DNA of 41,326 bases from a virus. Its lineage: Duplodnaviria; Heunggongvirae; Uroviricota; Caudoviricetes. The stretch is taken from IMG/VR virus record IMGVR_UViG_2718218397_000001. The stretch is one strand, 5' to 3'. The notes beneath the pieces are model-generated. The model saw only the letters and a list, made by a program, of their open reading frames with translations. It was not told where the DNA came from and ran no database searches. Every line of letters starts with the position of its first letter. Within the stretch, counting starts at the first letter, position 1. The translations under genes and the position numbers were made by a program. Below, one piece after another: positions 3,744 to 38,691 of the stretch.

Positions 3744-4047
3744 TGGCTGCCTCCTTTGCTGGGCTTTCTAACTTCTGAGTGGTTGTATCAAACTCAAACA
3801 ACTTAACCACGTCATCAAACAGGACATAATCGCCATCAGAATCTTCAGTCATGTCAGCGCCACAATCCTGACCGAACGAGTCACAACCATCCATATCAAG
3901 CTCGTATCGCTTGAGTTTTGCGATATTTGATAAATTCAGCGCCAGTACAGCAAGGTCATAAACCTCATCAGCGGTATACCCGGCACCATGCCCATACATT
4001 TCAATACGGGATATGATTTCTTCTACACGTTGTTTTGTGATCGTCAT
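3730..4047 (-). CDS. Hypothetical acidic phage protein
   Basis: 105-aa ORF in the early-left string. Confidence 0.4.
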   Translation of the reverse strand: MTITKQRVEEIISRIEMYGHGAGYTADEVYDLAVLALNLSNIAKLKRYELDMDGCDSFGQDCGADMTEDSDGDYVLFDDVVKLFEFDTTTQKLESPAKEAASERN

Positions 4048-4049
4048 TT

Positions 4050-4568
4050 TTACTCACCTTCCTGTTCTTCCAGAAAAATACGCATAGCCTCAAGCATCTC
4101 TTCGGTGTCATACGGTGACAACTTGTCACGCAGGATGTGTTCAATGCTGTTAATGAACTTGCGGATTGCTTTGCGTTCAATTTCAGCAAGGAATGCGTCG
4201 GTGGCCGGGGTTTTGATTTCGTTAAGTGCATCACTGAATCCACCTCTCTCCATACCTAGCTCTGCTTCGTAATCGGCATCGAATGCAGCGTCTTTGCAGA
4301 ACTTCTTCAGCTTTGCATTCTCCGCTGCCAGCGCCGAAAACTTCTCGTGTGCCAACTTAACAGCCGAATCAGCCTGCTTAATTGATTCAATCGCTTTCTG
4401 TTGGTCTTCGGACAGAGCTGAAATCTTGGCCTCCGCTTCAGCAAATTTACGCACAAGATATTCAGCGTTTGTTTCGTTAACCTTTAAATCACATGGGATG
4501 CATTTACCTTTCAGAAATCCATCCATCTCAATTAGTGTCATTTGTTTCATTTTTTCCCACTCCGCCAC
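4050..4568 (-). CDS. Ead/Ea22-like coiled-coil phage protein
   Basis: 172-aa ORF, long Ala/Glu/Lys-rich helical region. Confidence 0.45.
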
Positions 4569-4711
4569 ATCGCATTCAGATATTTGTTTTGATTCACTGA
4601 TGGAAAAGAATTTCTCTTAAGTAATTCTTCTCTCGATGGCATTGGCTTTACGCGTTGGCGAATAATCATTTCTGCCGGAAGAATGCCGGGATTGTATGCA
4701 AGCCCTCTCAT
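4544..4711 (-). CDS. Hypothetical small basic protein (55 aa)
   Basis: Hand-read ORF with ggagag SD and ATGA overlap with the upstream stop; not in ORF track. Confidence 0.3.
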
Positions 4712-4998
4712 GATTTACTCTCCACGAACTGGTCAATAGCCATGCTAAGTGACACACCTAAAGTCTCGATATGTTGCTGAATATCCTGTAGCGTCTGCGC
4801 CTGAGATAACAGGATTTCACGGTTGCATAACTCTTTAACCAGATGCTCAAACTTGCTGTAATAACCGATACGGCTTAGTGTTTCTTTCCCTGCATTCTCG
4901 CCTTCTTTGATAATTCCTCTTTCGCTAAGAATCAGATCGTGTTTTGTTCCGGTAATAACGTATTTTCCGAGGTCGATGTTTAGCTTCATTGTTTTCAT
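4708..4998 (-). CDS. Hypothetical protein (about 96 aa)
   Basis: ORF 4708..5151; likely start at the internal Met ([14 protein letters not shown]) preceded by a gagga SD. Confidence 0.4.
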
Positions 4999-5008
4999 TG
5001 TTAATTCC

Positions 5009-5305
5009 TCAGTCATTACTGATAGCGCCATAGCGTGAGCGGTAATTACGCAGGCGCGGGTCGATATATTCAGGGAAGTGGGTATATGTGGCTTTGCGGA
5101 ATGGTCGGATTGATGTCTGGTAAATTCGCTCTCGTTCTTCTTTCTCTGCAAGCCATATACAGTGGCGAAATTCCTTTTCCTCTTTCGTTTCCTGCGGTAG
5201 CGACATTATCAGGTCGTAGTTTTTTCTGAATTTATCCAGCACCTCCGATACGGAATTGCCGGAACAGCGGCGCGGGTCATCCGCACCATACAGAGGCGCT
5301 GGCAT
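5009..5305 (-). CDS. Hypothetical protein (98 aa)
   Basis: ORF with aggaga SD directly downstream of the exonuclease gene. Confidence 0.45.
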   Translation of the reverse strand: MPAPLYGADDPRRCSGNSVSEVLDKFRKNYDLIMSLPQETKEEKEFRHCIWLAEKEERERIYQTSIRPFRKATYTHFPEYIDPRLRNYRSRYGAISND

Positions 5306-5321
5306 ATTTTTCTCCTGTTGA

Positions 5322-5870
5322 TTATTTAGCTAATTTTTTCCAGATCGCTGAAACGTATTTGGCTTGGTGGATGGCATCATCAAGCGCGTTGTGGCGAGTT
5401 CCTTTGAATGGCATATCTCGCTTAGGATCGAATCCTATTACCTTCCCAAGTTCGACGATTGTTCTTACGTCGCGGTCATTCCACCACTGCCACGGAACTG
5501 GCTGCCCTGTCAGCGAATAACTGTTGCGGAGAATAACGCAGTCAAATGATGCTCCATTCCCCCAAACCTGAACGAATTTGTGGTTAGCGTTCTTTATGAT
5601 GAATTCAGATAACCATGAAAGAGCCGTTGAAAGCTCCTGAGTGTTGCTGGTTAGCGATTTTCTGGCTTCTTCACTCTGTTCCATCCACCATAAAATCGTT
5701 GAAGCGTCAGGACGCGCTCGATATCGCATTGATGATTCAAGCGAGATATTTACCGAGAACTCTTCTCCTGTTTCTCCGGTATTCGGGTCAAAGAATACCG
5801 CCCCAATAGAAATAACAGGCGCGTATGGCCCGTTGCCCATTGTTTCAAGGTCAACCATTAAGTGATTCAT
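5322..5870 (-). CDS. DnaQ-like 3'-5' exonuclease (recombination module)
   Basis: 182-aa ORF starting MNHLMVDLETMGN (DEDD exonuclease motif I-like), next to SSB and annealase. Confidence 0.7.
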   Translation of the reverse strand: MNHLMVDLETMGNGPYAPVISIGAVFFDPNTGETGEEFSVNISLESSMRYRARPDASTILWWMEQSEEARKSLTSNTQELSTALSWLSEFIIKNANHKFVQVWGNGASFDCVILRNSYSLTGQPVPWQWWNDRDVRTIVELGKVIGFDPKRDMPFKGTRHNALDDAIHQAKYVSAIWKKLAK

Positions 5871-5878
5871 GTAAGTCC

Positions 5879-6394
5879 TTAAATTGCGTGAATAGCGTGA
5901 CGAGGGAAGGGGAGAGTTACTGGTGCAAAGGGTATATCGTCGTCAAAATCCATAGGTGGTTCGCTGTGATTCCCTTGCTGCTGAGGTTGCTGTCTTTGTT
6001 GCTGACCGTTATTTCGCTGAGGTGAAGACTGTTCATTGCCTCCTTGCTTGCCACCAATCATTTGCATAGTTCCACCAACGCCCACGATGACTTCAGTAGT
6101 GAACCGATCCTGTCCGCTTTGATCCTGCCATTTTCTTGTCCGCAATTTGCCTTCAAGATAAACCTCAGAGCCTTTTCGCAGATATTCGCTGGCAATTTCT
6201 GCCAGTTTCCCGCTCATTACCACGCGGTGCCACTCCGTCTGCTCCTTTTGCTCTCCAGTTTGCTTATCACGCCATTGTTCTGACGTAGCAACTGTAAGGT
6301 TTGCAAATGCCGTTCCTGATGGTGAATATCTGATTTCTGGATCATGCCCAAGGCGACCAATAATGATCACCTTATTTACGCCTCTGCTTGCCAT
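5879..6394 (-). CDS. ssb: Single-stranded DNA-binding protein with 15-aa extension after the DDDIPF tail
   Basis: Strong similarity to E. coli SSB along the OB fold and acidic tail; ORF continues past DIPF as [15 protein letters not shown]. Confidence 0.85.
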
Positions 6395-7102
6395 TTATGC
6401 CGCCTGTTTTAGCTCGTTAACTCTGATGTTCATTACCTGAACGCATTTAGCCTGCGCCTCCTCGTTTCCAGCCATTAATTGCCAGTCACGCTGATAACGC
6501 TCGATGAGTTTTTTCTTATCAGTTTCTTTCGATGCATAATCGCTGAAGTCTTTCAGGATTTGTTCGCAGTCAACCGATGGAGATTTCTGGTTGGTATTTT
6601 CTGGTGATGGTTTGTTATCTGATGCTGGGATTGCCCAGCCGGGCAGCGTTGGAGGGAGCCAGTAAAACCCTGTTCCATCCTTCAGTTTTGCCCTGTGCCA
6701 CCCCTGCTTTTTATCGAGAGATGTTTGTGCGAAACCTTCCTCAAGGTTATACAGATACCGACCGATTCCCCATTGAACGGCAGCGCGCTTCATTGCACCG
6801 GAACGACCACCTTTGACGGCTTCTACTTGCGTGTTTTCAGCAGCATCCCATTTGGTTACCCATTCGGAATCAATCTTGATTGATATGCCGCATTCAACTC
6901 CGCCGTTGTTGGGAATATCGCGGTATTCATTGCGCCATCCTGCTTTGCCGCAAACATCGTCCAGGCGTTTCATGATTGCCCTGTTCGTGACATAAGCCAG
7001 CACCATAGCCCACACTTTTCCATCGCGTGTTTTACCGCTTTGCTGTATTCGCCATTCGATATCTTCAGGGCTGAATGGCTCATCGAATTTATTCAAATCC
7101 AT
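6395..7102 (-). CDS. Rad52/Sak-like single-strand annealing protein
   Basis: 235-aa ORF with KGGRSGAMKRAAVQWGIGRYLY motif, positioned where lambda carries bet. Confidence 0.6.
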   Translation of the reverse strand: MDLNKFDEPFSPEDIEWRIQQSGKTRDGKVWAMVLAYVTNRAIMKRLDDVCGKAGWRNEYRDIPNNGGVECGISIKIDSEWVTKWDAAENTQVEAVKGGRSGAMKRAAVQWGIGRYLYNLEEGFAQTSLDKKQGWHRAKLKDGTGFYWLPPTLPGWAIPASDNKPSPENTNQKSPSVDCEQILKDFSDYASKETDKKKLIERYQRDWQLMAGNEEAQAKCVQVMNIRVNELKQAA

Positions 7103-7201
7103 AATTCACCTCAGAATGGACATGGCCCAAGGAAATAACGCTGGTTTAATACTTCGACTCTGGACAAATTAAGGCATACCCGCATTCCTTCGCGGTCACC
7201 A

Positions 7202-7360
7202 TTATGGCGATACCAGAGAGCTTTCTGCGTGTACATGCGTCTCTGTAACTTGCTCTCCTTCACTGTGGTTGCAAGTGGCATGAATATCTCCTTCGTTACC
7301 GATTAATTCTTTCATCTGACGAATGAATTCTTCGTCTGACCAGTTATCTGTAAAACTCAT
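7202..7360 (-). CDS. Hypothetical small acidic protein (52 aa)
   Basis: Hand-read ORF with ATGA overlap to the kil stop; occupies the lambda gam position. Confidence 0.35.
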   Translation of the reverse strand: MSFTDNWSDEEFIRQMKELIGNEGDIHATCNHSEGEQVTETHVHAESSLVSP

Positions 7361-7509
7361 TTCCTGCGATACCACGGAAGGTTGATAGCTGATTTCATCG
7401 CTTTATTTGCTTCAAGCCACATTTTTGAATCACCAATAAATCTGGCTATTACTGCTTTGTTCTGTGCAGCACGAAGCATCTGGTGATTAATGGCTATTTC
7501 ATTGCGCAT
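7357..7509 (-). CDS. kil: Kil-like protein
   Basis: 50-aa hand-read ORF; IARFIGDSKMW resembles lambda Kil IATFIGDEKMF; sits next to cIII. Confidence 0.55.
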   Translation of the reverse strand: MRNEIAINHQMLRAAQNKAVIARFIGDSKMWLEANKAMKSAINLPWYRRK

Positions 7510-7628
7510 AACGCCTCCAGTTGTTTCTTTGCTGCTCTGATTAATTGTTTAACTCGGCGTGATAATTCAGATTCGTGCGGGTAGAAAGCGGACATGACGC
7601 CGCTACCCGCGAGCTGAAAGTGCATCAT
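7494..7628 (-). CDS. cIII: cIII-like protease inhibitor
   Basis: 44-aa product MMHFQLAGSGVMSAFYPHESELSRRVKQLIRAAKKQL resembles lambda/P22 CIII; aaggag SD. Confidence 0.65.
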   Translation of the reverse strand: MMHFQLAGSGVMSAFYPHESELSRRVKQLIRAAKKQLEALCAMK

Positions 7629-7694
7629 GGGTAACTCCTTATATTTGATTGCATAACGAAAACGCCTCGAGTGAAGCGTTATTGGTATGCATAT

Positions 7695-7718
7695 AAAAAA
7701 GCCCTCACACTGGAGGGC
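7695..7718 (-). terminator. Intrinsic terminator (tL1-like) upstream of cIII
   Basis: gccctc-acactg-gagggc hairpin followed on the minus strand by a T-run. Confidence 0.55.
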
Positions 7719-7852
7719 AAAGAAGATTTCCAATAATCAGAACAAGTCGGCTCCTGTTTAGTTACGAGCGACATTGCTCCGTGTATTCACTCGTTGGAAT
7801 GAATACACAGTGCAGTGTTTATTCTGTTGTTTATGTCAAAAATAAAGGTCGA

Positions 7853-8311
7853 CTATGCGGCCTCGGAAGGAAGTCCAATCATCTTATTCAAATCTTCTAC
7901 CCGTAAAGCAGGAAGTGCTGTACTTGCTTTATCTGCTTCTTTTGGTAGCAATTCTTTGCTTTCAGGCCAAACCTCAATAAGTCGCTTAACTGTTGTGACT
8001 GAGTTCAAAGCAGCCCATACATTTGATTCGATATCCTTTTTCTTGGCTTCAAGTTTTTGTTGCAATGCGCAGATTTCATCAAACCTTTTTGTTATTTCGT
8101 GTTCTGCGCTAAACATGCATTTATCTTTGTTCGGAGTAGGGAGCAATATATCTTCGCCGTTGCCGTCTTTCCCATATGAAAGCCATCCAACCCTTCTGCC
8201 AGATACAGTCAGATAAATTGAAGTAGAACGAACATCGTATGAGTAAAATGAACATCCAATCTTTCCAAGTTCTTCACTTATAGCTACCAACTTGGATGAT
8301 AACTGATCCAC
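7853..8311 (-). CDS. Hypothetical accessory protein in the N-proximal slot; frame continues upstream through an in-frame TAA to an SD+ATG at 8476
   Basis: 152-aa ORF from GTG; the upstream 12 codons (MSSIRLTTRMKE) in the same frame end at TAA 8438..8440. Confidence 0.45.
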   Translation of the reverse strand: MDQLSSKLVAISEELGKIGCSFYSYDVRSTSIYLTVSGRRVGWLSYGKDGNGEDILLPTPNKDKCMFSAEHEITKRFDEICALQQKLEAKKKDIESNVWAALNSVTTVKRLIEVWPESKELLPKEADKASTALPALRVEDLNKMIGLPSEAA

Positions 8312-8487
8312 TTCCTCAGTTTTCTTTTTACCGCCAAACGCAATAACTCTGGCGTCAAGTGCAAGCTGGTTCTTTAACTTTGTTACTTCTTCAAGTTCAG
8401 TGAAAACCCCAGACTTAATTAAAGCGTTACGAGCGATTTACTCTTTCATTCTCGTAGTTAAGCGGATTGATGACATATTAATTCCTC

Positions 8488-8814
8488 TCAAATAAGTGGT
8501 TTGCTGCCTAATTTCATTTTCTGGCGACCAACACAAGTCACACCCATTTCACTGCGTGGCTTGCTGTACCATGTGCGCTGATTCTTGCGCTCAATACGTT
8601 GCAGGTTGCTTTCAATCTGTTCGTGGTATTCAGCCAGTACCGTAAGGTCTATCGGATTCAGTGCGCTTTCTACTCGTGATTTCGGTTTGCGATTCAGCGA
8701 GAGAATAGGGCGGTTAACCGGTTTTGCGCTTACCCCAACCAACAGGGGATTTGCTGCTTTCCATTGAGCCTGTTTCTCTGCGCGACGTTCGCGGCGGCGT
8801 GTTTGTGCATCCAT
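8488..8814 (-). CDS. N: Antiterminator N (lambda type)
   Basis: 108-aa product matches lambda N (MDAQTRRRERRAEKQAQWKAANPLL...) from recall. Confidence 0.9.
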   Translation of the reverse strand: MDAQTRRRERRAEKQAQWKAANPLLVGVSAKPVNRPILSLNRKPKSRVESALNPIDLTVLAEYHEQIESNLQRIERKNQRTWYSKPRSEMGVTCVGRQKMKLGSKPLI

Positions 8815-13601: not shown

Positions 13602-14042
13602 ATGAAAAAACTAACCTTTGAAATTCGATCTCCAGCACATCAGCAAAACGCTATTCACGCAGTACAGCAAATCCTTCCAGACACAACCAAACCAATCGTA
13701 GTAACCATTCAGGAGCGCAACCGCAGCTTAGACCAGAATCGGAAGCTTTGGGCTTGCCTTGGTGACGTCTCTCGTCAGGTTGAATGGCATGGTCGCTGGC
13801 TGGATGCAGAAAGCTGGAAGTGTGTGTTTACCGCAGCATTAAAGCAGCAGGACGTTGTTCCTAACCTTGCCGGGAATGGCTTTGTGGTAATAGGCCAGTC
13901 AACCAGCAGGATGCGTGTAAGCGAATTTGCGGAGCTATTAGAGCTTATACAGGCATTCGGTACAGAGCGTGGCGTTAAGTGGTCAGACGAAGCGAGACTG
14001 GCTCTGGAGTGGAAAGCGAGATGGGGAGATCGGGCTGCATGA
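13602..14042 (+). CDS. ninB: NinB (Orf family recombination mediator)
   Basis: Product MKKLTFEIRSPAHQQNAIHAVQQILPD... matches lambda NinB from recall. Confidence 0.85.
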   Translation: MKKLTFEIRSPAHQQNAIHAVQQILPDTTKPIVVTIQERNRSLDQNRKLWACLGDVSRQVEWHGRWLDAESWKCVFTAALKQQDVVPNLAGNGFVVIGQSTSRMRVSEFAELLELIQAFGTERGVKWSDEARLALEWKARWGDRAA

Positions 14043-14911
14043 TAAATGTCGTTAGTTTCTCCGGTGGCAGGACGTCAGCATATTTGCTCTGGCTAATGGA
14101 GCAAAAGCGACTGGCAGGTAAAGACGTGCATTACGTTTTCATGGATACAGGTTGTGAACATCCAATGACATATCGGTTTGTCAGGGAAGTTGTGAAGTTC
14201 TGGGATATACCGCTCACCGTATTGCAGGTTGATATCAACCCGGAGCTTGGACAGCCAAATGGTTATACGGTATGGGAACCAAAGGATATTCAGACGCGAA
14301 TGCCTGTTCTGAAGCCATTTATCGATATGGTAAAGAAATATGGCACTCCATACGTCGGCGGCGCGTTCTGCACTGACAGATTAAAACTCGTTCCCTTCAC
14401 CAAATACTGTGATGACCATTTCGGGCGAGGGAATTACACCACGTGGATTGGCATCAGAGCTGATGAACCGAAGCGGCTAAAGCCAAAGCCTGGAATCAGA
14501 TATCTTGCTGAACTGTCAGACTTTGAGAAGGAAGATATCCTCGCATGGTGGAAGCAACAACCATTCGATTTGCAAATACCGGAACATCTCGGTAACTGCA
14601 TATTCTGCATTAAAAAATCAACGCAAAAAATCGGACTTGCCTGCAAAGATGAGGAGGGATTGCAGCGTGTTTTTAATGAGGTCATCACGGGATCCCATGT
14701 GCGTGACGGACATCGGGAAACGCCAAAGGAGATTATGTACCGAGGAAGAATGTCGCTGGACGGTATCGCGAAAATGTATTCAGAAAATGATTATCAAGCC
14801 CTGTATCAGGACATGGTACGAGCTAAAAGATTCGATACCGGCTCTTGTTCTGAGTCATGCGAAATATTTGGAGGGCAGCTTGATTTCGACTTCGGGAGGG
14901 AAGCTGCATGA
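14039..14911 (+). CDS. ninC: NinC-like protein (PAPS-reductase-like fold, 290 aa)
   Basis: 290 aa as lambda orf-290; SFSGGRTS P-loop-like motif; ATGA overlap with ninB. Confidence 0.65.
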
Positions 14912-18410: not shown

Positions 18411-18485
18411 GGGTCAGTCGTATAAAGGTCATTACGGAAGGCTGTTAACCTTCTTATCGTGGTTCGAGTCCACGCTGTCCCGCCA
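18411..18485 (+). tRNA. tRNA-like gene, anticodon GUU (Asn) by manual folding; two stem mismatches
   Basis: Cloverleaf folds by hand: anticodon loop CUGUUAA, T-arm cgtgg-TTCGAGT-ccacg, 3' CCA; U-U mismatch in acceptor stem. Confidence 0.5.
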
Positions 18486-18490
18486 AATAT

Positions 18491-18566
18491 GCTGGTTTAG
18501 CTCCAATGGTAGAGCAGTCGCCTTGTAAGCGAATGGGTAGCGGTTCAAGTCCGTTAACCAGCACCA
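18491..18566 (+). tRNA. tRNA-Thr (anticodon UGU) by manual folding
   Basis: Perfect 7-bp acceptor stem, D-arm gctc/gagc, anticodon loop CUUGUAA, T-loop TTCAAGT, encoded CCA. Confidence 0.6.
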
Positions 18567-18808: not shown

Positions 18809-19132
18809 ATGAAGATGCCAGAAAAACATGACCTGTTAGCCGCCATTCTCGCGGCAAAGGAACAAGGCATCGGGGCAATCCTTGCGTTTGCAATGGCGTA
18901 CCTTCGCGGCAGATATAATGGCGGTGCGTTTACAAAAACAGTAATCGACGCAACGATGTGCGCCATTATCGCCTGGTTCATTCGTGACCTTCTCGACTTC
19001 GCCGGACTAAGTAGCAATCTCGCTTATATAACGAGCGTGTTTATCGGCTACATCGGTACTGACTCGATTGGTTCGCTTATCAAACGCTTCGCTGCTAAAA
19101 AAGCCGGAGTAGAAGATGGTGGAAATCAATAA
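18809..19132 (+). CDS. S: Holin S (lambda type, dual-start)
   Basis: 107 aa [34 protein letters not shown]... matches lambda S. Confidence 0.9.
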
Positions 19133-19592
19133 TCAACGTAAGGCGTTCCTCGATATGCTGGCGTGGTCAGAGGGAACTGATAACGGACGTCAAAAAACCA
19201 GAAATCATGGTTATGACGTCATTGTTGGCGGAGAGCTATTCACTGATTACTCCGATCACCCTCGCAAACTTGTCACGCTAAACCCCAAACTCAAATCAAC
19301 AGCAGCCGGACGTTACCAGCTTCTTTCCCGTTGGTGGGATGCCTATCGCAATCAGCTTGGCCTGAAAGACTTCTCTCCGAAAAGCCAGGACGCTGTGGCG
19401 CTGCAACAGATTAAAGAACGTGGCGCTTTACCGATGATTGATCGCGGTGATATTCGTCAGGCTATCGACCGTTGCAGCAATATCTGGGCTTCACTGCCGG
19501 GGGCTGGTTATGGTCAGTTCGAGCATAAGGCTGACAACCTGATTGCAAAATTCAAAGAGGCTGGCGGAACGGTCAGAGAGATTGAGGTATGA
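19116..19592 (+). CDS. R: Endolysin R (lytic transglycosylase, lambda type)
   Basis: 158 aa matching recalled lambda R. Confidence 0.9.
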
Positions 19593-20056
19593 GCAGAGTA
19601 ACCGCGATTATCTCCGCTCTGGTTATCTGCATCATCGTTTGCCTGTCATGGGCTGTTAATCACTACCGTGATAACGCCATCGCCTACAAAGAACAGCGAG
19701 ATAAAAAAGTCAGTGAGCTGAAGCAGGCGACCGCCACCATTACTGACATGCAGCAACGCCAGCGTGCTGCTGATGCACTCGATGCTAAATACACGAAGGA
19801 GTTAGCTGATGCGAAAGCTGAAAATGATGCTCTTCGGCGCAAGCTTGATAATGGTGGCAGGGTGCTCGTCAAAGGAAAATGCCCTGTGCCATCCTCAGCC
19901 GAAACCTCCGGCGCCTCCGGCATGGGCAATGATGCCACCGTCGAACTCTCTCCAGTTGCTGGACGAAACGTTCTCGGTGTCCGGGACGGAATTATCCGCG
20001 ACCAAACAGCACTGAGAACGCTTCAGGAATACATCAGGACGCAATGCCTTCGATGA
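19589..20056 (+). CDS. Rz: Spanin inner-membrane subunit Rz
   Basis: 155 aa, N-terminal TM then coiled coil; position after R. Confidence 0.85.
19809..20015 (+). CDS. Rz1: Spanin outer-membrane lipoprotein Rz1 (embedded in Rz, +1 frame)
   Basis: Lipobox VAGC and Pro-rich mature region, fully embedded in Rz. Confidence 0.75.
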
Positions 20057-20230
20057 TAGCGATAATTTTACTCATCATCCTTCACATCTGGCTCTGTAGA
20101 CAGGGTGATGATCACTTCTGGAGTGAATCCAGATTAAACATCTCATTGCTGATGCTTGATATTGAGCATCTGGCGCGCGGTAAGGGGCTGCGTTGAGATA
20201 AGAGCCAGTCATTACAAATACCAGGATTTA

Positions 20231-20402: not shown

Positions 20403-20945
20403 ATGAACTACCCAACCGTTGTTAACGATATAGATTTCAGAGACCTAATTTTTGTAGCAAACAACGATCCGGTTACAGATTCTTTTATGGTGGCAAAAGC
20501 ATTTGGAAAGCTGCCGAAGAACGTGGTTCGTGACATTGAACGAACCATAGAAGCTTGCCCTCCTGAGTTTGATACAAAGCTCAACTTTGAGCTTTGCTAT
20601 AAAAACAATGAGTTACAGAATGGTAAGCCGCAAAAATTCTACCGTCTCCGCAAGGATGGGTTGATGCTTTTGGTTATGTCCTACACCAAAAAAGAAGCAA
20701 TGCGTATCAAAATTGCTTACATCAACGCATTCAACTGGATGTACGCCATGCTTCAGGTTGGTCATCGTCAATTTGAAGAAGAGAGAAATGCCGTAATGCT
20801 GGAGTACATGAAAGAGAAGGATGTTGCCAGCATGTCAGGCCGCCTGCTTAATCGCTGGGGAAAAATTAAGAAGCCTCAGCTGCTGGCGAGAATTGAACGC
20901 CTTGAACAGCACGGGCAAACCGTAATCCCCGGACTCACCAATTAA
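20403..20945 (+). CDS. rha: Rha-family phage regulatory protein
   Basis: N-terminal TDSFMVAKAFGKLPKNVVRDIERTIE resembles the Phage_pRha domain. Confidence 0.65.
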   Translation: MNYPTVVNDIDFRDLIFVANNDPVTDSFMVAKAFGKLPKNVVRDIERTIEACPPEFDTKLNFELCYKNNELQNGKPQKFYRLRKDGLMLLVMSYTKKEAMRIKIAYINAFNWMYAMLQVGHRQFEEERNAVMLEYMKEKDVASMSGRLLNRWGKIKKPQLLARIERLEQHGQTVIPGLTN

Positions 20946-32163: not shown

Positions 32164-33429
32164 ATGGCTACTTGGCAAGGAACAAACGGCGGATTGTTGG
32201 CTGGTATCGGCGGCGTCAACTCAAACGCTCCGAGCGTAAATGACATCAGCAATACGCTTCAGCTTATCAGGCAGAACAATGATATTGAGCATTCAGGCGC
32301 TAACAATGTTGGGCTGACTGCTTTGCAAGGCCTTTCAGGTATTGCAGGGGTGTTTCAGCAGGAAAAGCAGGCTCAGCGGCAGAAAGAATTTCAGCAGGCG
32401 TACGCTAATGCTTATGCGTCTGGTGATCGCGGTGCTTTGCGTCAGTTGGCTACTCAATATCCAGACCAGATTGAATCCGTTCGTAAAGGCATGGGGTTCA
32501 TTGATGAAGACCAGCGTAATTCTATCGGCACCTTAGCGGCTGGCGCACGCCTTGCGTCATCGTCTCCAGAAGCAATGCAATCATGGCTGCAAAACAACGC
32601 CAAGGAACTTACTCGCGTCGGTGTTGACCCTAACAGCGTTGCTCAGATGTATCGGCAGAACCCTTCAGGATTTGGTGAGTTTGTTGATCACCTTGGAATG
32701 GCTGCTCTTGGTCCGATTGATTACTTCAATGTTCAGGACAAGATGGTAGGTCGCCAGCAGGATCAGCAAAGAATTAACGAAACAATCCGTAATAATGACA
32801 TGACAAATGCCAGAGGGTGGGCAAGCAACAATATTGCGCAACAAAATGTCAATCTTCGGCGGATGGAATTAGAGGACAAGAAATACGACAGACTCATCGC
32901 AAATGAAACTAATGCATTAAAACTTGCTGAATTGCAGGACAAGAGATTGCAGAATCAGCAAGCTATGGAGCAGGCAAAGCGAGATAAGGCCGATGCGTAC
33001 AACTCTGGAATGGATAATCTCTCCAGAACGATAGAGACGGCTACAAAAGTTCTTAATAGCCCAGGATTCACGGGATATTTCGGAACAAACCTAAACCCAC
33101 TATCGAGTAGATTCATTCCAGGAACAGAGGCTGCTGACACAGAAACTCTGGTTGACACACTGAAATCTCAGGGATTCTTATCTGGCATTCAGCAGATGAA
33201 AGGGATGGGGGCTTTAAGTAATGCCGAGGGGCAAAAGGTAATGGATGCTATTGGTAGTTTGTCCCCAAATCAGTCTGAAAAATCAGCCAGAGAAGCTATT
33301 AAAACAATCATAAAAACCACTGAGATGGCTCAGAAACGTATGCAACAGAAATACGGGAAGGACATACAACCGTCTCAACAGCAGCTTTCTGATGATGACC
33401 TGATTAATAAATATCTCGGAGGGCAGTAA
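32164..33429 (+). CDS. Ejection protein (P22 gp20-like)
   Basis: 421 aa; gene order. Confidence 0.65.
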
Positions 33430-35543
33430 TGGCCTATAGTCGTGAACAGTTGATGACGGCGTTAAGGAATGCTGATGCTGCCGGCGATACTGAGGGAGCA
33501 CGTCGCATTGCTCAGATGTTGTCTTCTGGTGATCAATCCACTCAAAACCAATCGCAGCCAGGAGAACAATCTCTGGTAGGAAAAGCCACTGACTGGCTCA
33601 CTGGTGGTCAAAGCGCAGGGCAAATTGCAGAACAGGCTGGCCGTGGTCTGGTAAACATACCATTTGACGTATTGCAGGGTGGCGCAAGTCTGATTAATGC
33701 AATCAGCCAGGGGCTTGGTGGCCCCAAGGTTTTGGATGATGTCTATCGTCCAGTCGATAGACCGACAGACCCTTACGCGCAAGCCGGTGAAACAATTGGT
33801 GGGTATCTCCTGCCAATTGGCACAGCGGCAAAAGCTGCTGGAGCGCCAGCAAAGCTCGCAGGAGACATCGGTTCCGCAGGAAACATGATTGCCGGTTCTC
33901 TTGCTGATGCTGCAAATCAGGAGGGTGATTTTGCACAAAATGCTGCCATTAACGGTGGTATCAATATTGGTGCTCAAGGCGTTCTTTCAGGTGTTGGGCG
34001 CGTTATTGCGCCAAGGGTTTCACAGGCTCTTGGTGGTGCAGCACTGAATTCTGCTAATGATGTTTCCAGGATGGCAAAGTCAGGTGCTGGGCGTCAGTCA
34101 ATTGCCAGTCAGGCCGCTAATGTGTCCGAAGATGTAGCAAAAGCGGCTGAGTCTGCTGGAATTGATATAAACGCATTAACACCAGGAATGCGATCTGGAA
34201 GTCGTGGAATTGCACAAGCCGAAGGCGCATTGGCATCAACACCAGGAATTGTTCAGGACGCCCATCAGGCAGCATTTAACGAAATATCATCAAAGTTAAG
34301 TCGAAACCTTGATGAATTTGGGGCCGCATCTGGAACGGCATCAGAAAAAAGTGCGGCTATAAAACAAAGGATTCTTCAAAATCTTGATCAGATGAAGGAT
34401 GCCGAGCGCGCGGCATGGGATGACGTGCGGTCAACGATGCCAAATCAAAAAGCAAGAATGCTAAATGGTAATGCCGTTATTCAGGCAGAGCGATCTGCTG
34501 GCATACCGCTTACTCCTGAAATGAAACAGTTTGTTCAGGCAAACAATCAAGGTGGAGTAACATTTGATGGCATGAAAGCATGGAGAGCGAAATTTGCTGA
34601 TGCGGAGCAAAAATATAAGCGTAGCGGAGAGGCAAATGCGGCAAGGAGAGCAGGGGAAATACGCCGGGCAATTACTGATGATATGCGCACAATGGCGGAA
34701 AACGGCGGATTTCTTGATAACTGGCAAAAAGCTAATGATCTGTCTAAAGCGAGGTTATCAGCACAAGAGAGTGCAGAGTCTGTTTTCGGGCGTGATTTGG
34801 CAACAGATGCACTGATTACGAATGGAGTAAAATCCCTTCAATCATCGTCAGCTAAAGGTCTTAATGGTCCTTCTGGATTCCATTCTATGATCCGCGCGCT
34901 GCCAGAATCAGAGCGTGTTCCTGCTATATCATCAATGTTGCAAGATGCTATCTCGCATGGTGTACGTGGTGGTAAAGCTGATGCAGCAGGAATTAACCAT
35001 ATCGCAGAGATACTCACTCCACAAAATGTAAAAGCCATTAGCCGATATTCCTCAGAGCTTGGAAGAATTGCTGATGCATATGGCACTCTTGCAAGAGCAG
35101 CAGTGAAACCTCAGCAGTATATTGAAAGAACAGGGAGAACTGCCAATGTACTACGCGATCTGGATGCTGGTTTATCCAACGTCACATCAACAGTGTTAAA
35201 TGCAATTGCCAACTCAACATCAGGTGCCATTGTTGGTGGTGCTGGAGGAGGCATTGCAGGCGCTGCAGCAGGTGCTTTAGTTGGCGCTGGGTTAAAAGGC
35301 GCTGTATCTAAAATTGCCACCACACGTAGTGGTCGATATGCGATAGAGAAAGCTGTTCAGGAAGCCACCAAAGCAGTAAGAGCAGGCGGAAGCAAAGAAG
35401 CATTAGCGGCGGCTGAACGCAGATTTATGGCAAATAAAGCCGCCGTAAAAGCAATACGCGATGCTATTGGTAGCGATGAATTCAATCGCTTGTCGAGAGC
35501 TGGTATTGTCGCCTCGTTAAGCGGTATGAATGAATATGAATAG
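33429..35543 (+). CDS. Ejection protein (P22 gp16-like)
   Basis: 704 aa, Ala/Gly-rich; gene order. Confidence 0.65.
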
Positions 35544-35545
35544 CT

Positions 35546-36031
35546 TTATCTAATGTTGCTGCTACTGTTGCATGTGACGGTATTTCCAAATCCTGAATTG
35601 CAGTTTGTATAGGTGTCAACACGCGTTGGGTAAGGTTGAGTTATAACAGGCTGTCTCGCTTTTTGCTCGATCGCTTGCATTGTGTTTACAGCCTGATAAT
35701 TCAATAAAGCCTGCTGGAATGCTTGGCTTTGTGCTATTTGTTGGGCTTGTTCTTGGCTTTGTAATTGAACATAAAGATTCTGAAGCTCAAGTCTTGCCTG
35801 TGCGTCACTTATCTTGCCTTCATCGACACCTTGCCCGAGCATCTTCGCAGCAAGGACATACAGCTTAGGTGTTGGTGCTGATGCCATGCGTGAGTCGTTC
35901 TTCACGCTGGCATCAAGGCAATTAGCCATATCACTAAGCTTTGGATAGCGTTGTTCGCAACTTGCTTGATAGTCACTTACTTTTGCGCATCCAACCAGCA
36001 GAAGCGGGATAATTAACAGTGATTTTTTCAT
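35546..36031 (-). CDS. Lipoprotein of unknown function (immI/sieA-equivalent slot)
   Basis: ORF 35546..36067; start MKKSLLIIPLLLVGC with lipobox LVGC and aaggagag SD; Gln-rich coiled-coil middle. Confidence 0.6.
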   Translation of the reverse strand: MKKSLLIIPLLLVGCAKVSDYQASCEQRYPKLSDMANCLDASVKNDSRMASAPTPKLYVLAAKMLGQGVDEGKISDAQARLELQNLYVQLQSQEQAQQIAQSQAFQQALLNYQAVNTMQAIEQKARQPVITQPYPTRVDTYTNCNSGFGNTVTCNSSSNIR

Positions 36032-36101
36032 ATGGTTAACTCTCCTTAGTTTTTCACAGGATATCATGAAGGCAATGCCATTTTAGCCGGAAACTAGATT
36101 T

Positions 36102-36368
36102 CTATGTTTCCTTTTTATTATTGCTATACATGGTCTTAAGCGTTTCAAAAACCATTTTCTTAACCATATCAGATTGTTGTTCTGCCATACGCTCTGCATC
36201 GTCAATGTAAACGGATGCAGAGCTTTGTTTAGCCAATGATTCTTCAATCGCTGCAATTATCTCTGAGTTCAGCGACCTGTTATTCATCTTCGCACGCTGC
36301 TTAATTTTCGCGTGGAGTTCATGCGGAAGTCTCAAGTGAAACTGCGCCTCGTCGTATTTGCTGTACAT
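36102..36368 (-). CDS. mnt: Mnt-like ribbon-helix-helix repressor
   Basis: FHLRLPHELHAKIKQRA and C-terminal DAERMAEQQSDMVKKMVFETLK resemble P22 Mnt. Confidence 0.7.
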   Translation of the reverse strand: MYSKYDEAQFHLRLPHELHAKIKQRAKMNNRSLNSEIIAAIEESLAKQSSASVYIDDAERMAEQQSDMVKKMVFETLKTMYSNNKKET

Positions 36369-36489
36369 CCTTGATGCCTCACCAGTTGGGTGGAATGGCA
36401 TCGTAACTTACTGGATAAATACTCAATAGTACCATTTCGGTATGCAATCACATCATGGTTGCATCATATCATTCGTCTGGAGCAATGAA

Positions 36490-38691
36490 ATGTCAGATAT
36501 CACCGCAAATGTTGTGGTAAGCATGCCTTCGCAACTCTTCACTATGGCTCGTTCTTTTAAAGCCGTAGCCAATGGCAAAATTTATATCGGTAAAATTGAC
36601 ACGGACCCGGTAAATCCTGAAAACCAGATTCAGGTTTATGTGGAGAACGAAGATGGTTCTCACGTCCCTGTTTCGCAACCAATCATCATTAATGCTGCTG
36701 GTTATCCGGTATATAACGGACAGATTGCCAAATTCGTAACTGTGCAAGGCCATTCTATGGCTGTTTACGATGCGTATGGCGTACAGCAATTCTATTTCCC
36801 TAATGTGCTGAAGTATGACCCTGACAGATTACAACAGCGACTTATTAGTCACTTGGATGGAAATGGAGATGCTTTAGTTGCTACTAAGCAACCTATTGCA
36901 GGGGCGAAAGATAAAACAGTACATGATTGGATTGCTGAGCATGTTTCTATTAAAGACATGTATGGTGTTATTGGTGATGGTGTTAACGATGATGCGCCTT
37001 ATATAATTACTGCACTATCCAACCTATTGATATCCTGTAATCCTATTGTATTTGTCCCTGGAACATATCTCATAAATTCAGACATTACATTTGATATCCC
37101 TGTGACATTTATTCGTGGAGCTGTATTAAAAGTAAGAAATGGTGCCGTAGTTAAATTTAATGCAGAAATTGATGCTGGAAGGTATGAGATATTTGACACA
37201 GAAGATGACTTTTTCAATAATTACTTAGAAACTCCATCTGTTAAGATACCAAATGGACCTGTTCGTATTGAGTGGTTTGGAGCTAAATCAGTAAGTAGTT
37301 ATGCAGATATAGCGTCAGCACATGATTGTTCAGATGCTTTTTTAAAGGCATGGCATGCAACATGCGGAGAATTTAATGTGGAAATAACTCCTGGTGCTCT
37401 TTATCAGTCAGAGTTTTATCATTCATATGTATCTTTATCATCAGGAAAATATAGAATGGATAAAAATCTAAAACTATGGCATAGGGTTATTTCGCCATCT
37501 ATCATCAGATATAATAAAAATGGAGGGGGGATAATTGGTGATGGAATGGGGTTGTCAATTCTTGTTTTTACAGATCCTAAGTATGAAGGAAATGCTTATG
37601 TTGAACTCAGTGATATGAGCGGAGAGATGCATGAGTTTCGTGATTTTAAAGTGACATTCTATGATCCAAATGCTACAGGAGATGATATATATTTTGGTAG
37701 AGCTGGGGCTTGCATTCTGTTCTCTAGCGCAGATAGTATAGTTACAAAGAATATATGGGCTGCTGGAGCAAAATATCTTCGCACTGATATTGATGGGGTT
37801 CGTAGGGGTGGTGTGGGTATACAATTTGAGTCATTGGTAGACCATTTTTTCGAGAATCTATTAGTAGAGCACTGTATAAACGGTATTGCATTTAGTTCCT
37901 GTGTTTCAAATGGTTTTAACATTAAGGGATTCTCTAATAGAGTATCTGATCTGGCATTTGGTAATTATATACCAGCATGGCCAGATCTAATCACGCAAAA
38001 TGGCGTAAATCTTGTATCTGTTTCTGGCATGGAGAGCAAGGCATGTCCTGCAACTCCTATTTATTTTGGGACGGTTGATAACAGGGTTAACATAACTAAT
38101 GTTAATATTAAAGGAAATGCAGAATCATCATCTTCAATAGTAACATTTAGAGCCATTGCGTTTAACCATGCTGGGGCCGGTGCAGTAGGATTGATTCAGG
38201 GCAATGTTATGAATGTGAACTACGGTCTTATTGATGACGGTGGAACAGCTTTTGCTGGTAAATCTGGTTCACCATTAAGACTAACTTTTAATGTTTATAA
38301 TGTTGCAGGGAATTCCGCAACAGAAACAGCTGTTGCTGTATTCAAAAACCCTTTGTCTAATGTCGATATTGATTTAGGTGTGAATGGCGCATTGTTTCCT
38401 GCGCTTATTAGCTCATGTAATTACGCCATAGCCAGAATTAATATTGTTGGTATCACTGGGTCAAACTCAGCTCCCTACGTGGCATTCGGATGCAATGCAG
38501 GAATATTAATAATTAGAAGTTTGAAAGCATCAGGAAGTTCAGCGGCATACCTTGGCTATGCAGGAGGATCGTCTCAAGTCATTCTTCCATCTGCAATGTC
38601 AGCTGATATCACACTGGTTAGGAAAGGTTCAGGCTCTTCTGCTGATATAAGGCAGGAATCATCTTCACCTTACAACAATATTCAGTCTTAA
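36490..38691 (+). CDS. Tailspike: P22-type N-terminal head-binding domain fused to a different receptor-binding domain
   Basis: [43 protein letters not shown] matches P22 gp9 N-terminus; remainder Gly/Asn/Ser-rich and AT-rich. Confidence 0.85.

What the first reader, a model, noticed from the sequence alone, without database searches (positions are those of the whole stretch)
35546..36401. Lipoprotein plus orphan Mnt-like repressor in the immI/sieA-equivalent slot
Between the last ejection-protein gene and the tailspike, where P22 carries sieA-mnt-arc-ant, this phage has on the minus strand a 161-aa lipoprotein (lipobox LLVGC, Gln-rich coiled coil, Cys-containing C-terminus) and an Mnt-like RHH repressor. 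No arc or ant follows: the tailspike starts about 90 bp beyond mnt. The repressor therefore has no obvious antirepressor target. The lipoprotein is a candidate envelope-located superinfection-exclusion factor, by analogy with Cor and Llp-type lipoproteins.
Basis: partly seen in the sequence, partly recalled or inferred. Interest (0 to 1): 0.65.

Follow-up and report, generated by a model that had tools for sequence, protein, structure and literature searches.

The report
Prophage lipoprotein beside an antirepressor-less Mnt repressor
Between the DNA-ejection genes and the tailspike gene of this P22-like E. coli prophage sit a conserved envelope lipoprotein of unknown function and an Mnt repressor that has lost its antirepressor partner; the lone Mnt is already documented, and the lipoprotein is an untested candidate for blocking infection by other phages.

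Summary
Window 35546-36031 (-) encodes a 161-aa lipoprotein. Window 36102-36368 (-) encodes a true Mnt homologue with both the DNA-binding and the tetramerisation domain. The tailspike starts at 36490, and no arc or ant homologue is in the window.

The region is the known hypervariable "ant moron" of P22-like phages. A lone mnt was already described for ST64T, ST104 and Para1 in 2008. Mnt is not a relic. It keeps a promoter and an operator (GTACCATTTCGGTAT, 36429-36443) at the position of P22 Omnt. Operator sequence co-varies with the Mnt beta-strand across three classes. 64 of 66 fully readable copies are intact, with median dN/dS 0.125. The Pant-type promoter facing the tailspike has decayed. 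An ant remnant in one relative points to arc-ant deletion.

The lipoprotein belongs to phrog_6067 (function unknown) and has no Pfam or PADLOC hit and no informative fold match. It is under strong purifying selection (dN/dS 0.03-0.04). In P22-like prophages of many Enterobacterales it always sits in the sieA position. Remote relatives occur in a satellite-like island and at chromosomal loci.

Superinfection exclusion is the best guess, but it rests on context only, and the protein is not a Cor, Llp or Bor homologue. Moderate interest.

The parts
33429..35543 (+). gp16-type DNA-ejection (transfer) protein, last gene of the late operon before the slot (context)
   Evidence: 704-aa ORF. PGAP names it 'DNA transfer protein'. 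phmmer hit to P22 gp16 / own family.
35546..36031 (-). 161-aa lipoprotein gene (phrog_6067, function unknown). Its stop codon lies 2 nt from the gp16 stop codon.
   Evidence: ORF. phrog_6067 at 1.5e-110 over its full length. No Pfam or PADLOC hit. 94 homologous clusters. dN/dS 0.03-0.04.
35987..36031 (-). Signal peptide plus lipobox (MKKSLLIIPLLLVGC). Cys15 is the lipidated residue, and Ala at +2 predicts outer-membrane sorting.
   Evidence: Sequence. Cys15 is invariant in the alignments. The sorting rule is established knowledge; this is inference.
36042..36066 (-). Ribosome-binding site AAGGAG (36047->36042) and a candidate extended -10, TGaTATCCT (36066->36058), for the lipoprotein gene
   Evidence: Sequence. 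The block from the TGrTATCCT motif to the start codon is shared with VSe13, although the DNA further upstream is unrelated. The PWM score is only moderate, 6.5-7.9 bits. Predicted, not shown.
36102..36368 (-). mnt: 88-aa ribbon-helix-helix repressor with a C-terminal tetramerisation helix
   Evidence: Pfam Arc plus Repressor_Mnt. PDB 1MNT and 1QEY. 47% identical to P22 Mnt. PGAP coordinates. 64 of 66 fully readable related copies are intact, median dN/dS 0.125.
36400..36426 (-). Predicted mnt promoter: -35 TTGAGT (36426->36421), 15-nt spacer, -10 TACGAT (36405->36400). It is syntenic with P22 Pmnt.
   Evidence: PWM scan gives 8.5 bits, rank 109 of 413,000 positions. The positive control P22 Pmnt scores 14.3 and Pant 16.7. 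Syntenic promoters score 9.2-11.7 bits in VSe13, Gally, ST64T and L246.
36429..36443 (.). Candidate Mnt operator GTACCATTTCGGTAT, an imperfect form of GTACCA-TTT-TGGTAC
   Evidence: It occupies the same position as P22 Omnt, just after the conserved CTCAATA. TACC-N5-GGTA occurs once in the 41-kb window. It is a perfect palindrome in Buttiauxella L152 and in L246. It co-varies with the Mnt beta-strand class.
36442..36464 (.). Second palindrome ATGCAATCA-N5-TGGTTGCAT in the tailspike leader; role unknown
   Evidence: It is unique in the window. L148 carries a variant with a compensatory change.
36490..38691 (+). Tailspike gene with a P22-type head-binding domain (context)
   Evidence: Pfam Head_binding 2.3e-66. 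PGAP annotation.

Best explanation
This is one variant of the hypervariable 'ant moron' that P22-like phages carry between gene 16 and the tailspike gene. It holds two independent cassettes, both antisense to the late operon and both expected to be expressed from the prophage.

(1) mnt. It is a functional repressor left behind after deletion of arc-ant. It keeps its own promoter and an operator just upstream of the -35, so it most likely binds there as a tetramer and autoregulates. The Pant-type promoter that it represses in P22 has decayed, so it has no cis target other than itself. Transcripts from the mnt promoter can probably read on into the lipoprotein gene, because I saw no terminator in the 70-bp gap.

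(2) The lipoprotein. It is a moron gene for a Lol-sorted, probably outer-membrane-anchored, periplasmic protein. It has a disulfide-bonded helical domain, a long Gln-rich helix and a Cys-bridged C-terminal hairpin. I infer that it is an envelope factor made in the lysogen. Its most likely job is to interfere with DNA delivery by incoming phages at the outer membrane or periplasm, as a positional replacement for the inner-membrane protein SieA.

Shown here: gene identities, conservation, synteny, operator co-variation and loss of Pant. Inferred: operator occupancy, autoregulation, expression in the lysogen, outer-membrane location and the exclusion function.
For: Mnt identity.

Operator. It is syntenic with P22 Omnt and unique in the window. 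Three classes pair the Mnt recognition strand with the operator:
- PHFNFRMP with GGTCCACGGTGGACC (P22, eps34).
- PQFNLRLP with AGACCACnGTGGTCT (Gally, ST64T).
- QFHLRL with GTACCATTTnGGTAy (window, Sf101, VSe13, L148, L152, L246).

76 viral contigs carrying the class-III operator all place it next to an mnt, on the tailspike side wherever the contig reaches that far. None has an intact arc-ant after it.

Deletion origin. L125 keeps the last 110 codons of ant after the operator. VSe13, Gally and ST64T share the junction ...CTGCGGCGAT|TCCTTG....

Pant decay. P22 Pant scores 16.7 bits. The best plus-strand site here scores 6.9. The Pmnt-syntenic site scores 8.5-11.7 in all orphan-mnt phages examined.

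Selection. Median mnt dN/dS is 0.125 over 461 allele pairs, and 64 of 66 fully readable copies are intact. Lipoprotein dN/dS is 0.03-0.04.

Lipoprotein synteny. In Morganella, Yersinia, Citrobacter and Pantoea, and in the phages Gally, 720R6 and VSe13, it always lies between gene 16 and the tailspike, antisense, with or without mnt. MS2 LVA and Brookers also carry it, but I did not inspect their neighbourhoods.

The slot is a known home of prophage-expressed exclusion functions. SieA blocks DNA injection (PMC10883804). The BTP1 antisense RNA STnc6030 gives superinfection immunity (PMC7067206).

A remote homologue is cargo of an integrase/AlpA/primase island next to a T5orf172 gene. A Pantoea prophage remnant has kept only the acyltransferase, tailspike and lipoprotein genes.

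Against: The AlphaFold model is only moderately confident: mean pLDDT 65, with only residues about 17-100 above 80.

Remote family members sit at ordinary chromosomal loci. One is a fixed locus in Pectobacterium and one lies in a housekeeping neighbourhood. This fits a general envelope role at least as well as an anti-phage role.

P22-like phages adsorb to O-antigen, so a Cor/Llp-style receptor block is not the obvious route.

The promoters are consensus predictions of moderate strength, and the 15-nt spacer in the mnt promoter is short. The operator in this window is imperfect, with 2 mismatches to the palindrome. Why an autoregulated repressor with no other target should be kept under purifying selection is not explained.
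Confidence: 0.55

Rival explanations
1. The lipoprotein is a lysogenic-conversion factor that benefits the host for reasons unrelated to phage. Examples would be serum or stress resistance or envelope homeostasis, in the manner of lambda Bor. It simply rides in the only moron-tolerant site of the late operon.
For: Family members lie at stable chromosomal loci without phage genes. Pectobacterium has dsbB / theta-like / lipoprotein / minCDE, and one homologue sits in a housekeeping context. The gene lies close to an O-antigen acyltransferase, another conversion gene. It is retained in a decayed Pantoea prophage. No defence-model hit.
Against: No similarity to Bor, Iss or any characterised envelope lipoprotein. 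The same slot holds proven exclusion functions in P22 and BTP1. One homologue is island cargo next to a T5orf172 gene.
Confidence: 0.3
2. Mnt is kept because it acts in trans. It represses the ant promoter of incoming P22-like phages that share its operator, and so protects the resident prophage from antirepressor-driven induction (immI-type immunity without its own ant).
For: In P22 lysogens Mnt represses Pant (PMC2629481); that this also silences ant on superinfecting genomes is established P22 biology recalled from my own knowledge. The orphan mnt is under purifying selection. Phages with ant modules circulate in the same hosts.
Against: Among 76 viral contigs with the class-III operator, none has an intact arc or ant downstream of it, so no matching target was found. 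In L030-type phages a complete mnt-arc-ant module has its own, different Mnt.
Confidence: 0.2
3. Mnt controls tailspike expression. It would do so by repressing a weak promoter that overlaps the operator, or by acting as a roadblock to late transcripts entering gene 9.
For: The operator lies 47 bp upstream of the tailspike start codon, and this mnt-operator-tailspike unit persists down to 57% Mnt identity. [quoted passage not shown] The BTP1 tailspike gene has its own transcription start sites in the lysogen. A weak candidate, CTTACT-17-TACCAT, overlaps the operator (6.3 bits).
Against: No plus-strand promoter above 7 bits lies between mnt and the tailspike start in any orphan-mnt phage examined, against 16.7 bits for P22 Pant. 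Most P22-like prophages have no mnt before the tailspike at all, so such control is dispensable.
Confidence: 0.15
4. The functional product is antisense RNA rather than protein. Transcription running leftward through mnt and the lipoprotein gene into the 3' end of gene 16 would silence incoming homologous phages, as STnc6030 does in BTP1.
For: The lipoprotein stop is 2 nt from the gene 16 stop, and no terminator was found downstream on the minus strand, so its transcript must overlap gene 16 antisense. BTP1 gives a precedent in the same slot.
Against: Both ORFs show strong protein-level purifying selection. The lipoprotein keeps its lipobox, its Cys pattern and its architecture at 33-41% identity. 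An RNA effect could at most be additional.
Confidence: 0.07

Closest known systems
P22 immI region / 'ant moron' of P22-like phages (mnt-arc-sar-ant plus sieA, hkcC, orf59a)
   Same: It has the same location between genes 16 and 9. The same Mnt family is encoded antisense to the late operon. Promoter and operator are laid out as at P22 Pmnt/Omnt. The slot is a known site of rapid gene flux (PMC2629481).
   Different: arc, sar, ant, sieA, orf59a and hkcC are all absent. The Pant promoter is lost. Operator specificity differs (GTACCA-N3-TGGTAC class). A lipoprotein gene sits where sieA sits.
ST64T / ST104 / Para1 and Sf101 / IME10 mnt-only ant morons
   Same: mnt lies directly next to the tailspike gene with its operator and mnt promoter but no arc or ant. 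Sf101 Mnt and its intergenic region are about 90-96% identical to the window.
   Different: Those phages lack the lipoprotein. ST64T Mnt belongs to another specificity class (AGACCAC-N-GTGGTCT).
Phages Gally, vB_EcoP-720R6 and VSe13 (Lederbergvirus)
   Same: They carry the same lipoprotein (96-98% identical) in the same place, plus an orphan mnt.
   Different: They have an extra plus-strand gene between the two: a second lipoprotein in Gally and 720R6, and a gene annotated as an antirepressor in VSe13. Gally and 720R6 carry a class-II Mnt.
SieA of P22 (inner-membrane superinfection exclusion protein)
   Same: It has the same genomic position and orientation and is prophage-expressed. It blocks DNA delivery by P22-like phages (PMC10883804).
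   Different: SieA is a polytopic inner-membrane protein. This protein has a lipoprotein signal peptide and no other predicted membrane segment. There is no sequence similarity (no SieA hit).
Cor (phi80/N15/HK022), Llp (T5), Bor (lambda) and Ltp (TP-J34) phage lipoproteins
   Same: All are small phage-encoded lipoproteins made in the infected or lysogenic cell. Cor, Llp and Ltp exclude superinfecting phages.
   Different: No sequence or fold relationship was detected. Cor and Llp act by blocking FhuA, whereas P22-like phages use O-antigen. The architecture here (helical domain, long Gln-rich helix, Cys hairpin) is different.

Membership tests
Mnt repressor (ribbon-helix-helix, P22 type) | N-terminal Arc/Mnt ribbon-helix-helix DNA-binding domain | tested here: met
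   Pfam PF03869 Arc at 1.1e-14. PDB 1MNT at 5.7e-19 over residues 6-78.
Mnt repressor (ribbon-helix-helix, P22 type) | C-terminal tetramerisation helix (Repressor_Mnt) | tested here: met
   Pfam PF11423 at 3.9e-12. PDB 1QEY at 1.2e-6, residues 56-83.
Mnt repressor (ribbon-helix-helix, P22 type) | Palindromic operator next to its own divergent promoter region | tested here: met
   GTACCATTTCGGTAT at 36429-36443 is syntenic with P22 Omnt and co-varies with the recognition strand. Binding itself was not tested.
Mnt repressor (ribbon-helix-helix, P22 type) | Represses an antirepressor (ant) promoter in cis | tested here: not met
   No arc or ant in the window. No strong plus-strand promoter at the Pant position.
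Bacterial lipoprotein (Lgt/LspA/Lnt pathway) | Signal peptide with lipobox [LVI][ASTVI][GAS]C | tested here: met
   MKKSLLIIPLLLVGC. The Cys is invariant across 21 and 15 homologues. Lipidation itself is not testable with these tools.
Cor / Llp / Bor / Ltp / TraT phage or plasmid exclusion lipoproteins | Sequence or profile similarity to the family | tested here: not met
   No Pfam family at E<=0.01. The only PHROG matches are phrog_6067 (unknown function) and a signal-peptide-only match. No PADLOC model. This holds only as far as those families have models in the libraries searched.
Cor / Llp / Bor / Ltp / TraT phage or plasmid exclusion lipoproteins | Fold similarity | tested here: not met
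Superinfection exclusion factor (functional class) | Expression from the prophage lowers infection by incoming phage | not testable with these tools
   Only context is available: the sieA position, the antisense orientation, and precedents in the same slot.
SieA | Homology to SieA type A and a polytopic inner-membrane topology | tested here: not met
   phmmer with P22 SieA found no hit in the window or in 33 related loci. Apart from the signal peptide the protein is predicted to be soluble and helical. SieA types B and C were not available for testing.
Virion structural protein of P22-like phages | Conserved in all members and co-oriented with the late operon | tested here: not met
   It is encoded antisense. 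Only 5 phage records carry it. Most species-level P22-like loci have an empty gene 16-tailspike gap.

The most novel reading that the evidence does not exclude
The lipoprotein founds a new family of outer-membrane-anchored, periplasm-spanning exclusion proteins. They would block the trans-envelope ejection-protein conduit (gp7/gp20/gp16) of P22-like podophages, as an outer-membrane counterpart of the inner-membrane SieA. The family would be shared by prophages, satellite-like islands and domesticated chromosomal copies across Proteobacteria. The co-resident orphan Mnt would be a stand-alone immunity gene rather than debris.
Probability: 0.25. Interest if true: 0.6.

Novelty: new variant of a known kind. 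Interest (0 to 1): 0.4.

Why it matters
The gene 16-tailspike slot of P22-like phages is the one place in their late operon where prophage-expressed accessory genes accumulate. Two different exclusion mechanisms have already been found there: SieA protein and STnc6030 RNA.

A third occupant that is strongly conserved and envelope-targeted is a cheap, well-defined candidate for a new exclusion mechanism or a host-fitness mechanism. It is present in at least 2% of complete E. coli genomes, including O26:H11 strains.

The Mnt result has a different value. It gives three natural pairs of recognition-strand and operator sequence for a classic model repressor. It also shows that the lone mnt is maintained by selection, which poses a clear question: what does a repressor without its antirepressor do?

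Neither point overturns current understanding.

Tried and rejected
- Family libraries. Pfam, NCBIfam and PADLOC gave nothing usable. The NCBIfam GspK hit (18.9 bits against a cut-off of 130) is a Gln-rich-helix artefact. Remote relatives also have no Pfam domain and no informative names.
- A Pant-like promoter driving the tailspike. I looked for it and rejected it on PWM scores, with P22 as positive control.
- Other Mnt sites in the prophage. The operator occurs only once. The two near-matches (12423, 27707) lie inside coding regions, and the number of matches is within chance expectation. The Rha-family gene at 20403-20945 has no operator nearby.
- Lysis or spanin role. Rejected because the prophage has its own lysis cassette at 18809-20196 and the gene is antisense to the late operon.
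- Lipoprotein as a partner of Mnt. Rejected because each occurs without the other: Morganella and Yersinia carry the lipoprotein only, and Sf101 and ST64T carry mnt only.
- Census for co-occurrence with SieA. It was limited to SieA type A and found none in the 33 species-level loci, so mutual exclusivity could not be established.
Full report
**What is there**

The window is a complete P22-like (Lederbergvirus-type) prophage. It is identical to one in E. coli FORC_041.

After the last ejection-protein gene (33429-35543, +) come two minus-strand ORFs and then the tailspike (36490-38691, +; Pfam Head_binding 2.3e-66).
- ORF 1 (35546-36031) encodes a 161-aa protein that starts MKKSLLIIPLLLVGC|AK.
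- ORF 2 is an Mnt homologue. Pfam Arc scores 1.1e-14 and Repressor_Mnt 3.9e-12. It matches PDB 1MNT at 5.7e-19 and the tetramerisation peptide 1QEY at 1.2e-6. It is 47% identical to P22 Mnt.

The finding's right-hand coordinate, 36401, is the longest-ORF start. The start at 36368 (88 aa) fits better. It matches PGAP and the alignment to P22 Mnt, and by eye it has a GAGG ribosome-binding site. The 36399-36401 ATG falls inside the predicted -10 of the mnt promoter.

tblastn with P22 Arc and Ant finds nothing in the window.

**The slot is a known hypervariable region**

Villafane et al. 2008 named the interval between genes 16 and 9 the "ant moron". They found ten types in sixteen genomes and noted that ST64T, ST104 and Para1 carry mnt without arc or ant (PMC2629481).

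I confirmed mnt directly next to the tailspike in several phages:
- ST64T.
- Sf101 and IME10, whose Mnt is about 90% identical to the window's and whose intergenic region is almost the same.
- Gally, 720R6 and VSe13.

I also ran a census with one genome per species, giving 33 loci.
- Most P22-like prophages have nothing between gene 16 and the tailspike.
- Three have mnt as the only recognised gene there: an E. coli, Escherichia sp. E1V33 and a Symbiopectobacterium.
- Two have lipoprotein plus mnt: a Buttiauxella and Providencia alcalifaciens.

The "orphan Mnt" is therefore real but not new.

**Mnt still has a binding site and a promoter**

In P22 the order is mnt, then the overlapping Pmnt and Pant, then CTCAATA, then Omnt (GGTCCACGGTGGACC), then arc. 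The window keeps the CTCAATA landmark. It is followed at once by GTACCATTTCGGTAT (36429-36443).

The core TACC-N5-GGTA occurs only once in the 41 kb.

Across relatives the sequence at this position changes together with the Mnt recognition strand:

| Class | Recognition strand | Operator | Seen in |
|---|---|---|---|
| I | PHFNFRMP | GGTCCACGGTGGACC | P22, eps34 |
| II | PQFNLRLP | AGACCAC-N-GTGGTCT | Gally, ST64T |
| III | QFHLRL | GTACCATTTnGGTAy | window, Sf101, VSe13, Escherichia sp. E1V33, a Citrobacter |

In a Buttiauxella and in contig L246 the class-III site is a perfect palindrome, GTACCATTTTGGTAC. This co-variation is good comparative evidence for a real operator. Binding itself was not tested.

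I scanned the region with a sigma-70 weight matrix.
- It recovers P22 Pant (16.7 bits) and Pmnt (14.3 bits) as the top sites, which serves as a positive control.
- In the window the Pmnt-syntenic site TTGAGT-15-TACGAT scores 8.5 bits.
- No plus-strand site between mnt and the tailspike exceeds 6.9 bits.
- The pattern repeats in Gally, VSe13, Sf101, ST64T and L246: Pmnt is kept at 8.5-11.7 bits, and Pant is gone.

**How the orphan state arose, and whether it is decaying**

- One contig (L125) has a class-III mnt and operator followed by the last 110 codons of a P22-type ant, its terminator and the tailspike.
- VSe13, Gally and ST64T share a junction...CTGCGGCGAT|TCCTTG..., just before the tailspike ribosome-binding site.
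- These are footprints of deletions that removed arc-ant.

The gene is nevertheless maintained.
- Of the 66 fully readable class-III mnt copies next to the operator in viral contigs, 64 are intact, at 84-88 aa. Four more copies run off the end of their contig.
- The 53 distinct alleles give a median pairwise dN/dS of 0.125.
- The unit mnt-operator-tailspike persists down to 57% Mnt identity.
- None of 76 contigs with the class-III operator has an intact arc or ant behind it.
- Some phages have a complete mnt-arc-ant module and, in addition, a class-III mnt next to the tailspike.

My reading is that Mnt binds its operator and autoregulates. It may have a further role, either immunity in trans or modulation of transcription into gene 9, that I could not establish.

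**The lipoprotein**

Library searches:
- It matches phrog_6067 (function unknown) over its full length.
- It has no Pfam or PADLOC hit. The one NCBIfam hit, to GspK, is far below the cut-off.

Distribution:
- 94 clusters of close homologues occur in Escherichia, Citrobacter, Serratia, Klebsiella, Cronobacter, Yersinia, Pectobacterium, Morganella, Providencia and Tatumella.
- In every context examined the gene lies between gene 16 and the tailspike of a P22-like prophage, antisense, with or without mnt.
- Five sequenced phages carry it.
- At least 106 complete E. coli genomes carry the same lipoprotein-mnt arrangement.

Conservation and predicted structure:
- The lipid Cys, a Cys25/Cys38 pair and two C-terminal Cys are conserved.
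- dN/dS against VSe13 and Gally is 0.03-0.04.
- AlphaFold2 predicts a small helical domain (residues about 17-100, pLDDT 80-88), a long helix to residue 125, and a poorly defined linker and hairpin.

Wider family:
- A profile search of 1.8 billion representative proteins finds 251 clusters.
- Many are lipoproteins of about 128 aa with the same helical domain and the same C-terminal motif, TTxCxxxGNxxxCxSY.
- None has a Pfam domain or an informative name.

Contexts of the remote relatives are mixed:
- A fixed chromosomal locus in Pectobacterium.
- A housekeeping neighbourhood.
- The cargo position of an integrase/AlpA/primase island next to a T5orf172 gene.
- A Pantoea prophage remnant that kept only the acyltransferase, tailspike and lipoprotein genes.

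**How it most likely works**

Ala at +2 predicts Lol-dependent sorting to the outer membrane. This is an inference from the established sorting rule. The conserved Cys pattern implies periplasmic disulfides.

The gene carries its own ribosome-binding site and about 45 nt of conserved upstream DNA with a possible extended -10. It could also be read through from the mnt promoter. These features fit a moron expressed in the lysogen.

Its position is that of sieA, whose product blocks DNA injection by P22-like phages (PMC10883804). In BTP1 the same slot yields an antisense RNA that confers superinfection immunity (PMC7067206).

On that basis, interference with incoming phage at the envelope is the single most likely function, at roughly 35%. 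A Bor-like host-fitness role is nearly as likely. The protein is not a Cor, Llp, Bor or Ltp homologue. P22-like phages adsorb to O-antigen rather than to a protein receptor, so any mechanism would differ from the Cor/Llp receptor block.

A virion role is effectively excluded. The protein has a lipoprotein signal peptide, is encoded antisense to the late operon, and is absent from most P22-like phages.

**Verdict**

The description is accurate. The Mnt half is already documented in the literature, though it gains an operator and evidence of selection here. The lipoprotein half is a widespread, uncharacterised family whose function cannot be resolved by computation. This is a new variant of a known kind of region, of moderate interest.

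Noticed in passing
window 36442-36464: A second palindrome, ATGCAATCA-N5-TGGTTGCAT, lies in the tailspike leader and overlaps the right edge of the Mnt operator. Escherichia sp. E1V33 (L148) has ATTCAAT-N9-ATTGAAT at the same place, a compensatory change that keeps the symmetry. VSe13 and Gally lack it. Its role (RNA hairpin or second protein site) is unknown.
   Followed up: partly
L034 7387-7999; L054; L079; L110; L147 4305-5001: In several close relatives a minus-strand gene of 166-179 aa, which I read from its sequence as an HNH-type homing endonuclease, is inserted a few codons after the tailspike start. The first tailspike codons (ATGTCAGATATCACC) are left as a stub upstream, and the tailspike restarts about 610 bp later.
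   Followed up: no
L002 3121-3540 (Gally gp14); L014 2260-2679 (eps34 gp15): Another gene found in the same slot in other phages is also a lipoprotein (MKRIIGVVAGAILLSGC...). It is unrelated in sequence to the one in the window, so the slot collects envelope proteins repeatedly.
   Followed up: no
protein P0093 (E. coli, 167 aa): This is a chimeric ORF. The first 43 or so residues of the lipoprotein reading frame, including the upstream MISCEKLRRVNH extension, are fused to an ERF-type recombinase (PF04404). Presumably a large deletion in a decaying prophage produced it.
   Followed up: no
L139 / L140 (Pantoea sp.) 3928-8679: A prophage remnant consists only of the acyltransferase, tailspike and lipoprotein genes next to an integrase, inserted beside the flagellar fliE-fliF genes. 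The conversion end of the phage has outlived the rest.
   Followed up: no
L030 5036-8797 (also L085, L127): Some P22-like contigs have a full mnt-like / arc-like / two-antirepressor module and, in addition, a second class-III mnt with its operator right before the tailspike. The class-III mnt is therefore not simply the leftover of that module.
   Followed up: partly
window 36468-36496 (minus strand): A promoter-like site, CTGACA-17-AATGAT (8.7 bits), has its -35 inside the first tailspike codons and points leftward through the operator and mnt. It recalls the antisense start sites mapped at the 5' end of the BTP1 tailspike gene.
   Followed up: no
window 36102-36368: This Mnt is mosaic. Residues 1-33, the DNA-binding part, are nearly identical to the VSe13 type (one difference). 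The C-terminal tetramerisation part resembles the P22/Gally type. This implies recombination inside the gene.
   Followed up: no
window 7853-8437 and 14039-14911: The PGAP annotation of the identical prophage lists an Nmad5-family putative nucleotide-modification gene and a PAPS-reductase-family gene among the early genes. tRNA-Asn and tRNA-Thr lie at 18411-18566.
   Followed up: no
L137 6439-7408; L144; L146 (Pectobacterium): The chromosomal lipoprotein homologue in Pectobacterium always sits next to a small DNA-polymerase-III-theta-like gene. The same gene type appears near the integrase end of the Morganella P22-like prophages (L006, L007). The 'chromosomal' locus may therefore be a very old prophage remnant.
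   Followed up: no
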